Of a stretch of 64,000 nt of DNA, positions 3,919-13,443 are shown one piece after another. Below the pieces are notes generated by a model. The model did no database searches, had not been told where the DNA came from, and was given only the letters and a program-made list of their open reading frames with translations. The first letter of the stretch is position 1; every line of letters starts with the position of its first letter. This stretch comes from Octopus vulgaris (taxonomy: Eukaryota). The position numbers and the translations under genes were made by a program. The stretch lies in NCBI GenBank assembly GCA_951406725.2, contig OX597835.1, positions 10,230,001 to 10,294,000 of the forward strand, in the 5' to 3' direction.

Positions 3919-4394
3919 GCCGAATAGCTTATTTACAAGGACTTAGGGATTTAAACAAAACAACACCGGTTATCAAGCAGGGACTCACACACACACACAC
4001 ACACACACGTAAACATAGATTGTATGTATGTGTGTATGTATGTATGTATGTATGTATGTACATACGATGGGCTTCTTCCAGTTTCCATCTACCAGATCCA
4101 CTCACAAGGCTTTGGTCGGCATGAGGCTATTGAAGAAGACACTTGCCCATGGTTCCACGTCATGGGACCGAACCCGGAACCATGTGGTTGGGAAGCAAAC
4201 TCCTTATCGCACAGCCAATCCCGCGCCCACACAGCCAAATATGCAAGCAGACACACACACACACACACGCACGCACACGCACAGAGCCAGTGTCCCATAA
4301 AATGCGCTCGTGACAGTGTTAGGTTAAAAGCACCCAGCACGCAGCGTAAAGTGGCTTGTGCGTGCGTGCGTGTATGTGCGTGCGTGCGTGTGTG

Positions 4395-4426
<32 letters not shown>

Positions 4427-4627
4427 CTTGCATATTTGGCGCAGGATTGGCTGTGTGGTAAGTTTGCTTCCCAACTACATGGTTTCGGGTTCGGTCCCAT
4501 GACGTGGAACCATGGGCAAGTGTCTTCTTCTATAGCCTCGTGCCGACCAAAGCCTTGTGAGTGGATCTGGTAGATGGAAACTGGAAGAAGCCCATCGTAT
4601 GTACATACATACATACAATCTATGTTT

Positions 4628-4664
<37 letters not shown>

Positions 4665-4830
4665 TCCCTGCTTGATAACTGGTGTTGTTTTGTTTAAATC
4701 CCTAAGTCCCTGTAAATAAGCTGTTCGGCAAAAGAGATCGATAGAATAAGTACCAGGCATTGTTAAATTAAGCCCTTCACCACAGTGCCCCAGCATGAGC
4801 GTGTCCCAATGACTGAAACCAAAAATAGAA
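3919..4830. repeat. Inverted pair of SINE copies forming a fold-back
   Basis: 3919-4270 is the near-exact reverse complement of 4405-4729. Confidence 0.85.
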
Positions 4831-5654
4831 GACAAGGTGTGTGTGTGTGTGTGTTCATGGATGTATAGACGCAGGCGTCACTGTGTTGCCCCTCGGTCAA
4901 GCAAAAGGGATTTGGTAGACGGAAACTGAAAGAAGCCCGTGTGTATATGTGTGTTCCACCACCGCTTGATAACCGGTATTGATATGTTTAAAAGCGTAAA
5001 GAACCCCTTTGGTCGCACCTAGAAAGTTCCGCTCCGAGGTACAAGTCCGGGCAAGATTTGTTTTATGGAAGACCAGCAGTCGCCCATGCATACAGCCTCG
5101 CCTGTCCTTGCCACCGATGTTATCCAAGGGAAACGCAAAGACTAATATACACCTTGGCACCTGTGACGTCATAACTCATTTGTACAGGTGAGTGAACTAG
5201 AGAAGCGTGAAATAAAGTGTCTTGCTCAAGAACACAACACACAGCCCGGTCCGGGAATCGATCTCACTACATTACGATTGGGAGCCCGACGCTCTAACCA
5301 CTGAGACATGCGCCTTCACTGACGTGTTTACGTACCCGTAACTTGTTCAAATTCCGCCGAGGTCGACTTTGCCTTTCATCCTTTCGGAGTCGATAAATTA
5401 AGTACCAGTTACGCACTGGGGTCGATGTAATCCGTTTGTCTATCCTTGTTTGTCCCTTCAATGTTTAACCCCTTGTGGGTAGTAAAGAAATAGTAACTTA
5501 GTGTTCCGGCAAAAGAAGGCGATAGAATAAGTGCTAGGCTGACAGTGGGGAAATTGGGGAAATCCATTGGTTCGACTAAAATTCTTCTAGGCTGTGCCCC
5601 AGCATGACCGTAGTCTAATGAGTGAAACAAGTAATATATACATATATATATATA

Positions 5655-7596: not shown

Positions 7597-7979
7597 TTTA
7601 ATGCTTTAATTAAGTTGTTGTGGTTATCGTCAAGAAATGTTCTCATGTCCATCGGAATGGACGGATCGGCTAAATTTAAATCGACAATCACATGTTTACC
7701 ATTGTGCACCGTTTCAACACCAAGTGCTTTCTTTTTATTACCGTTGCACCGTCTTTCGAACTGCACAAACTTCATCGTTCCAGATGTGGCCGAAGAACAG
7801 AAGAGAGAAAAGAGGAGAGACCCGTGCCTGTCGCTGTCGCTTCGAAATAAACAGTAATTGCCACCACGATTACGATGACGACCAAAGGTTATCAGTGTGG
7901 TGGTGGTGGTGGTGGTGGTGGTGAACCTGGGAATCACTACTAAAGATGGTAACGATAGTAGCGAGGACACTCGTATCAT
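7597..7979 (-). CDS. FAHD2A: Fumarylacetoacetate hydrolase domain-containing protein 2, first coding exon (conserved part starts at ATG 7775; upstream ATG 7979 may add a mitochondrial presequence)
   Basis: MKFVQF...LGVE...VIVDLNLADPSIPMDMRTFLD resembles the recalled FAHD2A N-terminus (MRLVQF...LGLE...VINLNAFDPTLPKTMTQFLE). The exon ends at a perfect AA|GTAAGT donor (7596-7591). Later exons were not found in the window. Confidence 0.8.
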
Positions 7980-10035: not shown

Positions 10036-11388
10036 GATCTTTCCCCTTTGAACGGCAAATCGAGTAATTAATTTTCTGTAACTAAAACGAAATATACACC
10101 GCCGATAGTTGTTGTTGTTGATAAACAACAGCAGTAATTTTATTCAGCTGAATACACGTTATTGATTGGTTGAAATTACCGAAATAAGACAACTTTAACA
10201 CGAAATAACTTTGAAAATATAAACTTTTCTCAACAACACATAGGCGCAGGAGTGGCTGTGTGGGAAGTAGCTTGCTAACCAACCACATGGTTCCGGGTTC
10301 ACTCCCACTGCGTGGCACCTTGGGCAAGTGTCTTCTGCTATAGCCCCGGGCCGACCAATGCCTTGTGAGTGGATTTGGTAGACGGAAACTGAAAGAAGCC
10401 TGTCGTATATATGTATATATATATAAGTTTGTGTGTATATGTTTGTGTGTCTGTGTTTGTCCCCCTAGCATTGCTTGACAACCGATGCTGGTGTGTTTAC
10501 GTCCCCGTAACTTAGCGGTTCGGCAAAAGAGACCGATAGAATAAGTACTGGGCTTACAAAGAATAAGTCCCGGGGTCGATTTGCTCGACTAAAGGCGGTG
10601 CTCCAGCATGGCTGCAGTCAAATGACTGAAACAAGTAAAAGAGTAAAAGAGAGTAACACTAAGAGTAAAAGATGTTTTATAAGACACATTCTTATTTCTT
10701 TAATACCCACAAGGGGCTACACACAGAGGGGACAAACAAGAACAGACAAACGGATTAAGTCGATTACATCGACCCCAGTGCGTAACAGGTACTTATTTAA
10801 TCGATCCCGAAAGGATGAAAGGCAAAGTTGACTTCGGCGGGATTTGATCTCAGAACGTAGCGGCAGACGAAATACCTATTTCTTTACTACCCACAAGGGG
10901 CTAAACACCGAGGGGACAAACAAGGACAGACAAACGGATTAAGTCGATTACATCGACACCAGTGCGTAACAGGTACTTATTTAATCGATCCCGAAAGGAT
11001 GAAAGGCAAGGTTGACCTCGGCGGGATTTGATCTCAGAACGTAGCGGCAGACGAAATACCTATTTCTTTACTACCCACAAGGGGCTAAACACCGAGGGGA
11101 CAAACAAGGACAGACAAACGGATTAAGTTGATTACATCGACACCAGTGCGTAACTGGTACTTAATTCATCGATCCCGAAAGGATGAAAGGCAAAGTCAAC
11201 CTCGGCGGAATTTGAACTCAGAACGTAACGGCAGACGAAATACGGCTACGCAGTTCGCCCGGCGTGCTAACGTTTCTGCCAGTTCGCCGCTTTTTTATAT
11301 GACACAGTCTACCAGTGTCCGAGTGTTTGAAAGTGTTTAGTTACAAAAAAATTAATTTCTCGATCTGCCGTTCAAAGGGAAAAGATCC
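10036..11388. mobile_element. Non-autonomous DNA transposon with about 53-bp TIRs, carrying nested SINEs
   Basis: ggatctttcccctttgaacggcaaatcgag...taactaaa (10036-10087) is inverted at 11336-11388. It contains a SINE at 10241-10655 and a Nin-SINE trimer at 10692-11290. Confidence 0.75.
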
Positions 11389-11530: not shown

Positions 11531-12517
11531 ATGTCACAAAACAGAACTGATTCACTAAAAAAAGAATTTTCCATGGAGATTCTGGAGATGTTTAAAAACA
11601 TTAGAAGGACATTTGGTAAACGTTTGGATAAAGAAGGGGAATTTATACCTAAAGCAAAGGAAAAACTTATTATATCCTCGAAAACATTTTCCTCTAATTA
11701 CGATGTTCACGACGAGATTTTTAAGACTATGTATCGTTCCGTTTCCAATGACAAAGACAAAGCCGAAAATCTGATTTCAATTCTAAAGGAAACCGGCTAT
11801 TCTGACTTGGCTTGTCTCCTCAAGTCGTATTCTGTATTCAAACCTCATTTCCTTTTGTTAATCATCGACGAAAAACAGGACAAGAAGGAAGTTGATGAGT
11901 TAAGTAAACTTTTTGAGTCTATGAAATTTACTGTTGTTGTTAAAACAGTAAATGAATTGGAAAACGATATCAAAAATAAATGTGGTATCGACACAGATGG
12001 TATCTTTTTGCTATTCATTTTGTTTCAGATTGACCGAAAGGAAACCGAATTGTCCGTTGGCAAAATAATTGAACATTTCTGTCCTAAAAACACACCGAAA
12101 TTATTTCTTATTAATAGCGAAAGGGTTACTTCTGAATCTAAGAAAAATAATTCCTCGAACAACGACGATGCTAATAATAATCCAGGGAATACTTCGCAGA
12201 CAGGCAAGTCTTGTTCTACCCGTAGTGGAGAACAAACTGATGGTAGCACCAAGAAGGAGAATTCGGGAAAAAATAGTGGAGAAACAGAATGTTGTGAGAA
12301 AGATGATCTTTTTGTGGTTCGCATTTTTTACGAAGATAATAGCCAGAGTTTCGTTAAGTTTCTGGTTCAAGTTTTCCAAAACTACGCAAAAAACGAAGAA
12401 AACAAACAATTCTACCGTTTTGAACATATGTTGTGTGATATTAATCGCAACTTAAATCAAGGAATGGTTTCTGCTTGTTGGATACCAAAAAAACATTTAA
12501 TTTTTTATGAGCTTTAG
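11531..12517 (+). CDS. Intronless death-fold (CARD-like) plus inactive caspase-like protein (pseudocaspase), 328 aa
   Basis: Long non-repetitive ORF in AT-rich DNA. NLISILKETGYSDLACLL resembles the last helices of a CARD/death fold. LLLIID..EVDELSKLFESMKFTVVV, IFLLFILF and PKLFLINSER follow the caspase p20 pattern. DLFV..SFVKFLVQVFQNYA..MLCDINRNL..KKHLIF follows the p10 pattern. Confidence 0.75.
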   Translation: MSQNRTDSLKKEFSMEILEMFKNIRRTFGKRLDKEGEFIPKAKEKLIISSKTFSSNYDVHDEIFKTMYRSVSNDKDKAENLISILKETGYSDLACLLKSYSVFKPHFLLLIIDEKQDKKEVDELSKLFESMKFTVVVKTVNELENDIKNKCGIDTDGIFLLFILFQIDRKETELSVGKIIEHFCPKNTPKLFLINSERVTSESKKNNSSNNDDANNNPGNTSQTGKSCSTRSGEQTDGSTKKENSGKNSGETECCEKDDLFVVRIFYEDNSQSFVKFLVQVFQNYAKNEENKQFYRFEHMLCDINRNLNQGMVSACWIPKKHLIFYEL

Positions 12518-13057: not shown

Positions 13058-13443
13058 GGCAATCTTTCGTCTCTAGTAGACCTTTCCGTCGATTTCCGTA
13101 AAAAAAATTTTTTTTTTTACATATGGGCTTGCGGGAACTTTTGAAGTAATGAGAGCGAAAGAGACTAAGAGAAAGCGATTGTATGACGAGGGAAGTTCTT
13201 TTGAAGTTACCGTGCATGGGAAGCATTGATGTACATGTGTGTTTGATGGGGTGTGGGAGACAGACAGTATGTTGTGTAAGTGAAGTGCTTCTGTTAGTAT
13301 GTGTGAAAGAAAGAGATAACTGAAATTTTTTACTCGGTGTATGTGTATGTATATTACTTCAAAAGTTCCCGCAAGCCCATATGTAAAAAAAAAAAAAATT
13401 TTACGGAAATCGACGGAAAGGCTACTAGAGACGAAAGATCGCC
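13058..13443. mobile_element. MITE with about 90-bp TIRs
   Basis: 13058-13150 and 13353-13443 are reverse complements. Confidence 0.85.

What the first reader, a model, noticed from the sequence alone, without database searches (positions are those of the whole stretch)
11531..12517. Intronless CARD-like plus catalytically dead caspase gene (possible lineage-specific c-FLIP-like decoy)
Seen: an intact 987-nt single-exon ORF. From known caspase alignments, the p20/p10 secondary-structure motifs are kept in order. Both catalytic motifs are replaced: the SHG position reads ILFQ, and PKLFFIQACRG reads PKLFLINSERV. The substrate-binding loops are shortened. The N-terminal ~100 aa end in a death-fold-like helix pair. 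The low-complexity linker contains EQTD|G, resembling initiator-caspase cleavage sites such as c-FLIP LEVD|G. Inference: this is a retrocopied or intron-lost pseudoenzyme that could regulate apoptosis or immune signalling by binding an active caspase or adaptor. Unlike DED-based c-FLIP, it appears to have a single CARD-like domain.
Basis: partly seen in the sequence, partly recalled or inferred. Interest (0 to 1): 0.8.

Follow-up and report, generated by a model that had tools for sequence, protein, structure and literature searches.

The report
Conserved dead CARD-caspase of octopods
An intact octopus-type gene encodes a heavily eroded copy of a cell-death protease (a caspase) that has lost both catalytic residues yet is kept in other cephalopods such as the argonaut, so it likely works as a non-cutting decoy that restrains its still-active relatives.

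Summary
The ORF is real (11531-12517, +, 328 aa). It is a catalytically dead caspase: His is Gln166, Cys is Glu197, and both Arg substrate-pocket loops are deleted. Alone it hits nothing in Pfam; the identity rests on three distinct relatives (one from Argonauta hians, two unnamed), all lacking the dyad. The family descends from a tandem array of single-exon CARD-caspases elsewhere in the genome (hhalign 99.2%; tree), not from caspase-8, so it is not a c-FLIP. Being intronless is ordinary here: 56 of 88 caspase matches lie in one frame, and 10 of 39 other caspase ORFs examined also lack His or Cys. Neutral drift would have closed the frame (0 of 1000 simulations). New detail: the CARD-derived domain lacks most of helix 3 in all four members while helix 1 and 4 motifs are invariant, suggesting a one-sided decoy or cap. 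Transcription and binding are untested. Verdict: new variant of a known kind (pseudocaspase), interest 0.5.

The parts
11531..12517 (+). Single-frame coding sequence, 328 aa CARD-derived domain plus dead caspase (P0001)
   Evidence: single copy
11531..11827 (+). N-terminal CARD-derived death-fold domain (aa 1-99), five helices in the model
   Evidence: aligned to Pfam-positive CARDs of the C26 array; model helices H3-31, 38-44, 56-69, 75-87, 91-97; VIA Z 6.2-6.7 to Dronc and caspase-9 CARDs
11582..11599 (+). Helix 1 motif L18-x-M-F-K-N23, invariant in the four dead family members
11663..11695 (+). Shortened helix-3 region (aa 45-55): 10-14 residues fewer than the C26 CARDs; no helix in the model
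   Evidence: naming it helix 3 rests on the recalled CARD pattern
11708..11722 (+). Helix 4 motif H60-D-E-I-F64, invariant in the family
11828..12124 (+). p20-like half (aa 100-198), L1/Arg179 loop deleted
12026..12028 (+). Gln166 in place of the catalytic His
12119..12121 (+). Glu197 in place of the catalytic Cys
12125..12298 (+). Low-complexity intersubunit linker (aa 199-256), pLDDT under 50
   Evidence: 25 of 51 columns identical to P0002
12230..12244 (+). EQTDG, possible caspase cleavage site (untested); QTD aligned in P0002 only
12299..12514 (+). p10-like half (aa 257-328), L3/Arg341 loop deleted; last strand with family-invariant A315 and W317
   Evidence: 46 of 71 columns identical to P0002
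7597..7775 (-). Neighbour, not part of the gene: likely first coding exon of a fumarylacetoacetate-hydrolase-family gene, head to head, ATGs 3756 nt apart
   Evidence: four PF01557 exon matches on the same strand 11-36 kb left of the window; the exon itself has no Pfam or PDB hit; its likeness to FAHD2 is recalled

Best explanation
This is an intact gene for a CARD-derived domain joined to a caspase fold that lacks both catalytic residues, kept across octopods, and it likely acts as a non-cutting decoy that restrains the single-exon CARD-caspases it descends from. Shown: dead dyad, deleted substrate loops, homology to the C26 CARD-caspase array, an open frame kept over about 44% amino-acid divergence, relatives with the same losses. 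Inferred: the domain would be recruited to the same CARD platform as its active relatives through the conserved helix 1 and helix 4 face (type Ia), could not pass the assembly on because helix 3 (types Ib and IIIa) is mostly gone, and would bring an inert caspase body in place of an active one, so raising the threshold for caspase activation in immunity or cell death.
For: Dead site: Q166 and E197 at the His and Cys columns; all four distinct members lack both (Q/E, Q/K, C/K, M/no Cys). Caspase identity: family profile vs PDB, 77 sequences at E<=10, the 60 shown all caspases, best 5.5e-8; P0003 hits Pfam C14 at E 5.9e-10; ESM Atlas first hits are caspase clusters at 0.91; model pLDDT 69.9, Foldseek 164 matches at E<=0.001, VIA Z 12.4 to caspase-8 and Dronc. 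Descent: P0003 links to the window gene (E 8.3e-11) and to the C26 array (E 4.6e-24); family vs array hhalign 99.2% over 265 columns including the N-terminus; family plus array form one side of a 100/97 branch, 99 in a pruned tree. Selection: 0 of 1000 neutral simulations to 56% identity stayed free of stops, mean 11.8 stops; 10 indels against P0002, all whole codons, and core identity (61%, 65%) above linker (49%). CARD emphasis: invariant columns 19 of 84 in aa 1-99 against 16 of 151 in the rest (p 0.02; 19 of 74 vs 13 of 147 and 19 of 77 vs 14 of 136 in two other alignments), the reverse of the active array (60% vs 74% mean identity). Interface geometry and INCA capping: passages of PMC11874512.
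Against: No expression, localisation or binding data were obtained. Between P0001 and P0002 the N-terminal domain is less conserved (46 of 96) than the caspase halves (59 of 97, 46 of 71), which does not favour the CARD as the main functional part. Many invariant N-terminal residues are hydrophobic and may be core, not surface; the model's coordinates were not inspected. The CARD call for P0001 alone is weak (4 of 500 shuffles as high; Atlas 0.76 with unrelated hits; Z under 8). The good model was built on an alignment holding active caspases; the two-sequence model (pLDDT 43) found no caspase at E<=0.001. Branches are long: P0003's grouping with P0001/P0002 fell to 47 in the pruned quick tree, and without P0003 the tie to the array fell to 78. 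Reported anti-apoptotic roles of dead caspases do not always hold up: PMC3591282 passages saw no effect of csp-2 or csp-3 loss on somatic deaths.
Confidence: 0.5

Rival explanations
1. Allosteric activator in the manner of cFLIP-L or the mosquito decoy CASPS18: the dead caspase body would heterodimerise through its last strand with an active CARD-caspase and switch it on or alter its specificity; cleavage at EQTD|G would tune this.
For: p10 half is the best-conserved part between P0001 and P0002 (46 of 71); the last strand carries invariant A315 and W317, and C316 replaces the bulky Tyr/Phe/His of the array at the central dimer column (role of that column recalled); precedent in passages of PMC11121540 and PMC4840389.
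Against: The linker and its QTD site are absent or short in P0003 and P0004; P0003 and P0004 keep Tyr at the central column; erosion is far deeper than in the C26 members that lost only Cys.
Confidence: 0.2
2. Repurposed scaffold: the protein has left caspase control and uses its new invariant residues (M20, N23, E62, S99, W317) to bind another partner in signalling.
For: 11 of 32 invariant columns hold residues found in none of the 11 array members; single copy on another contig, away from the array; too diverged for the array's profile.
Against: Both domains and their order are kept full length in all four members; no partner or motif points elsewhere.
Confidence: 0.25
3. A decaying or untranslated pseudogene whose frame is open by luck.
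For: Transcription was not shown; the genome holds broken caspase copies (5 of 56 long matches have stops).
Against: 0 of 1000 neutral simulations kept both frames open; full-length relatives with shared motifs, one in Argonauta.
Confidence: 0.05

Closest known systems
cFLIP-L (CFLAR), vertebrate pseudocaspase
   Same: Death-fold prodomain plus full caspase fold without catalytic residues; possible Asp site in the intersubunit linker; c-FLIP-L domain among fold matches (Z 11.5, tied range); top Atlas clusters.
   Different: One CARD-derived domain, no tandem DEDs; descends from a CARD-caspase array rather than caspase-8; single coding exon; independent origin.
Caspase-12 (CARD-type inflammatory pseudocaspase)
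   Same: Inactive or near-inactive caspase proposed to modulate related caspases (PMC11121540 passages); CARD prodomain (recalled).
   Different: Caspase-12 keeps most of the site (SHG or Arg341 changes); here both dyad residues and two loops are gone; unrelated lineage.
Caspase-like decoys of Diptera (Aedes CASPS18) and C. elegans CSP-2/CSP-3
   Same: Inactive duplicates acting on a paralogue (passages of PMC3141678, PMC4840389, PMC3591282).
   Different: Those derive from effector-type or truncated caspases; this one keeps a CARD-derived domain and is shared between genera.
INCA/CARD17 (CARD-only filament cap)
   Same: A CARD with a defective b surface that is recruited but blocks elongation (PMC11874512 passage); the missing helix 3 here would spoil the Ib and IIIa faces.
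   Different: INCA is CARD-only and human; capping here is only a prediction.
Single-exon CARD-caspase array of this genome (C26:33.70-33.82 Mb)
   Same: Same architecture, length and lack of introns; nearest active-looking relatives.
   Different: 8 of 11 members aligned keep His and Cys; they keep the substrate loops and helix 3 region; 20-27% identity to P0001. Its place among caspase-2 / caspase-Y of PMC11463336 was not determined.

Membership tests
Caspase (C14A) fold | p20 and p10 strand/helix order, caspase-like fold | tested here: met
   profile hits to caspases, hhalign 99.2%, Foldseek and VIA Z 12.4, rmsd 3.0-3.9, 171-172 aligned; model built with active caspases in its alignment
Active caspase | His-Cys catalytic dyad | tested here: not met
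   Q166 and E197
Active caspase | P1-Asp pocket (Arg179, Gln283, Arg341 equivalents; numbering recalled) | tested here: not met
   gap, N195, and deleted loop/F266
CARD | Homology to CARD sequences | tested here: met
   through P0003 (E 8e-8 to the array's CARD profile, 0 of 500 shuffles) and full-length hhalign; array members hit PF00619. P0001 alone: no Pfam hit
CARD | Six-helix bundle with helix 3 | tested here: inconclusive
   five helices in the model, 10-14 residue deletion; Z 6.2-6.7 to CARDs and 6.5 to a DED; domain not folded alone
c-FLIP | Tandem N-terminal DEDs | tested here: not met
   99-residue single domain aligned to CARDs; the 3 DED matches in the genome lie elsewhere
c-FLIP | Paralogue of, and adjacent to, caspase-8 | tested here: not met
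   the DED-DED caspase locus is about 13 Mb away (C22:23.3 Mb); P0003 scores E 1.8e-4 there against 4.6e-24 for the array; that caspase was not in the trees
c-FLIP | Binds and regulates an active caspase | not testable with these tools
   needs co-IP and activity assays
Retrogene | Intronless coding sequence | tested here: met
Retrogene | An intron-bearing parent as nearest relative | tested here: not met
   nearest relatives are single-frame CARD-caspases; any intron loss predates the split
Retrogene | Poly(A) remnant and target-site duplication | tested here: inconclusive
   no direct repeat pair flanking the ORF among 7 families; such marks would not outlast this divergence

The most novel reading that the evidence does not exclude
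Cephalopods independently evolved a two-in-one brake on caspase signalling: a one-sided, helix-3-less CARD that caps CARD assemblies (as INCA does) fused to a dead caspase body that occupies the dimer slot (as cFLIP does), kept as one conserved copy to police a fast-evolving, undescribed array of intronless CARD-caspases, within a genome-wide set of dozens of intronless caspases and decoys.
Probability: 0.2. Interest if true: 0.75.

Novelty: new variant of a known kind. Interest (0 to 1): 0.5.

Why it matters
Few pseudocaspases are characterised, and none from cephalopods turned up in ten literature searches (listings only). Passages of PMC11463336 report no APAF-1, PIDD or PYCARD in molluscs, so how their CARD-caspases are switched on and off is open; a conserved dead paralogue is a ready bait to find the platform. 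The gene is invisible to Pfam, so surveys that count caspases by domain would miss it. The session also exposed a large intronless caspase repertoire (51 of 88 matches long and stop-free) with many dyad-less copies, which makes the gene less unique but the system more interesting.

Tried and rejected
Pfam and PDB sequence searches with P0001 alone: nothing significant. Two-sequence AlphaFold model: pLDDT 43, no caspase at E<=0.001. Atlas on aa 10-102: 0.76, unrelated bacterial clusters. Further homologue searches with the family alignment and with P0003 found no new members, so range beyond four distinct proteins is unknown and absence from squids is not shown. Sequencing runs: 24 listed, 20 hold the stretch, no RNA holder on record; this is no evidence either way, and no read coverage was obtained, so transcription and UTR exons stay open. 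Complex prediction of the dead caspase domain with one C26 caspase domain: no answer (scores 0.08 and 0.19, mark 0.34; alignments not used). dN/dS could not be computed: no DNA for the relatives. Trees: one search used 41 rows (A5 without P0006, plus P0005); one search dropped P0006, P0004, L039, L040, L041, both L043 rows and L049, then also P0003; neither had reference caspases or a true root. The 39 own-genome ORFs scored for the dyad were my pick from 58 caspase-like ORFs (duplicates, fragments and some near-copies left out), themselves from part of the 88 matches. Earlier-findings look-ups returned nothing. Bryant et al. 2010 (PMC2902568) is not held and is known here only through citing passages. 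Rejected: retrocopy specific to this gene; c-FLIP orthology; last exon of a longer coding gene (all four members start with Met at the same place).

Full report
Observation. The reading frame is as described: 11531-12517 on +, 328 aa, no stop, between common repeats, one copy in a 2.8 Gb, 227-contig genome. On its own the protein is nearly anonymous: no Pfam or PDB sequence hit. The first independent hint was the ESM Atlas, whose ten best family hits agree on caspases, scores 0.88-0.91 with 137-151 shared features, a level that shuffled proteins sometimes reach.

Relatives. One homologue came from the word-indexed search (P0002, 341 aa, 50-56% identity, unnamed; its cluster-mate P0006 differs trivially). 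A full HMMER scan of 1.84 billion representatives gave 4 hits: P0002, P0003 (E 1.4e-17), P0004 (E 1.1e-12) and a true amphioxus caspase (E 6.6e-4). P0004 is a hypothetical protein of Argonauta hians; P0003 is unnamed. All four distinct members start at the same Met, are 290-341 aa long and share 35 invariant columns. P0003 is the least eroded and scores Pfam Peptidase_C14 at E 5.9e-10. A profile of the family hits solved caspases, best E 5.5e-8.

Origin. The genome has 88 Peptidase_C14 matches; 56 cover at least 200 of 233 positions in one frame, 51 of them without a stop, many in tandem arrays. One array, C26:33.70-33.82 Mb, holds single-frame CARD-caspases (CARD E 9e-8 to 0.03, C14 E 1e-32 or better, for 4 of 4 tested). 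P0003 matches these over its whole length (E 4.6e-24) and the window gene next (E 8.3e-11). Family against array: hhalign probability 99.2% over 265 columns, N-terminus included. In a 41-row tree of caspase domains the family is one group (97/94) and family plus array one side of a 100/97 branch; with long rows dropped the latter holds (99) but P0003's tie to P0001/P0002 falls to 47, and without P0003 the tie to the array is 78. In the N-terminal domain P0003 is nearer the family (36 of 91 identical to P0001) than the array (18-26 of 83-84). So the gene is a dead offshoot of an already intronless CARD-caspase lineage; no retrocopy of its own is needed. P0001 alone does not beat shuffles against the array's profile (62 of 300): the chain of homology depends on P0003.

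Dead site. At the His and Cys columns P0001 has Q166 and E197, P0002 Q and K, P0003 C and K, P0004 M and no Cys. The loops with the Arg179 and Arg341 equivalents are shortened or deleted (numbering recalled, Arg341 and the SHG box also in PMC11121540 passages). It cannot be a protease of the caspase type. Dead copies are common here: 10 of 39 other ORFs examined lack His or Cys, among them 3 of 11 array members with Cys to Tyr. P0001 stands out by age and depth of erosion.

Selection. Two lineages mutated neutrally from this ORF to 56% identity gathered 11.8 stops on average and 0 of 1000 runs had none. The 10 indels against P0002 are whole codons; identity is 61% in p20, 65% in p10, 49% in the linker and 48% in the N-domain. 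This is protein-level evidence; dN/dS was not possible and transcription was not shown.

Structure. With a 41-row alignment AlphaFold2 gave pLDDT 69.9, low only in the linker. Foldseek: 164 matches at E<=0.001, the listed ones caspases. VIA-align: Z 12.4 to caspase-8 and Dronc, 11.5 to c-FLIP-L; the N-domain matches Dronc CARD (Z 6.7, rmsd 3.5, 81 aligned), caspase-9 CARD (6.2) and a DED (6.5). The alignment contained active caspases, so this is not fully independent; the two-sequence model was poor and found nothing, though its helix and strand order was similar. The N-domain has five helices; the stretch matching the array's third helix is 10-14 residues shorter in all four members.

Mechanism. 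Invariant columns cluster in the N-domain (19 of 84 against 16 of 151, p 0.02; similar in two other alignments), the reverse of the active array, and sit on helices 1 and 4. In death-fold assemblies helices 1 and 4 form the type Ia face, helices 2 and 3 type Ib, helix 3 type IIIa, and INCA caps caspase-1 filaments because its b surface is defective (PMC11874512 passages). The best-supported reading, inferred and untested, is a decoy that joins the CARD platform of its active relatives, cannot extend it and contributes no activity (0.5). Against it, the pairwise P0001-P0002 conservation is higher in the caspase halves, and many invariant residues may be core. Rivals: activator by heterodimer as for cFLIP-L or CASPS18 (0.2), scaffold with new partners (0.25), pseudogene (0.05). 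The EQTD|G site lies in the intersubunit linker but is not family-wide.

Known kinds. Pseudocaspases are known: cFLIP and caspase-12 (PMC11121540, passages), dipteran decoys (PMC3141678 and PMC4840389, passages), CSP-2/3 (PMC3591282, passages). It works, at most, like these; it is not a member of the c-FLIP family (no DEDs, other parent). Surveys of lophotrochozoan caspases (PMC11463336, passages and 2 of 23 'Octopus' supplement rows; PMC11543851, passages and 2 of 3 supplement rows, one file unreadable; PMC4199593, passages; PMC12052993, passages) showed no such protein in what I saw; unread supplement rows may list the array. Ten searches, seen as listings, gave no paper on a cephalopod pseudocaspase; subscription papers are not covered.

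Verdict. Real, conserved, catalytically dead CARD-caspase of independent origin; new variant of a known kind; interest 0.5.

Noticed in passing
G000:C26:33.70-33.82 Mb (L032-L038): Tandem array of about 20 single-frame CARD-caspase copies with an unusual NTCQ/NTCE catalytic motif; 3 of 11 aligned have Tyr for Cys, others are broken by stops.
   Followed up: partly
G000:C5:54.1-54.5 Mb, C19:7.0-7.1 Mb, C28:6.3-6.4 Mb: Further tandem arrays of intronless short-prodomain caspases; with singletons (L040, L041, L043, L044, L026, L031) several lack His or Cys.
   Followed up: partly
L056:1972-3177 and 4047-5279 (G000:C14:16.246-16.250 Mb): Two tandem single-frame genes (401 and 410 aa) with a CARD (E 1.6e-5, 4.5e-6) followed by about 310 residues of no known family; alternating strand/helix pattern suggests another eroded caspase-like region, but profile scores were not significant.
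   Followed up: partly
G000:C24:38.85-39.06 Mb and C14:75.54-75.63 Mb: Clusters of 11 and 6 CARD-encoding frames, possible adaptors or partners.
   Followed up: no
window 7597-7775 (-): Likely first coding exon of a fumarylacetoacetate-hydrolase-family gene, head to head with the dead caspase; later exons lie left of the window.
   Followed up: partly
window 10688-11239: Three tandem 184-nt copies (91-95% identical) of a common short interspersed repeat, 290 nt upstream of the ATG.
   Followed up: no
window 13081-13421: MITE-like element with long terminal inverted repeats downstream of the gene.
   Followed up: no
P0005 (Branchiostoma belcheri KAI8482183.1): COR-B, caspase and GT4-conflict glycosyltransferase domains in one predicted protein; may be an annotation fusion.
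   Followed up: no
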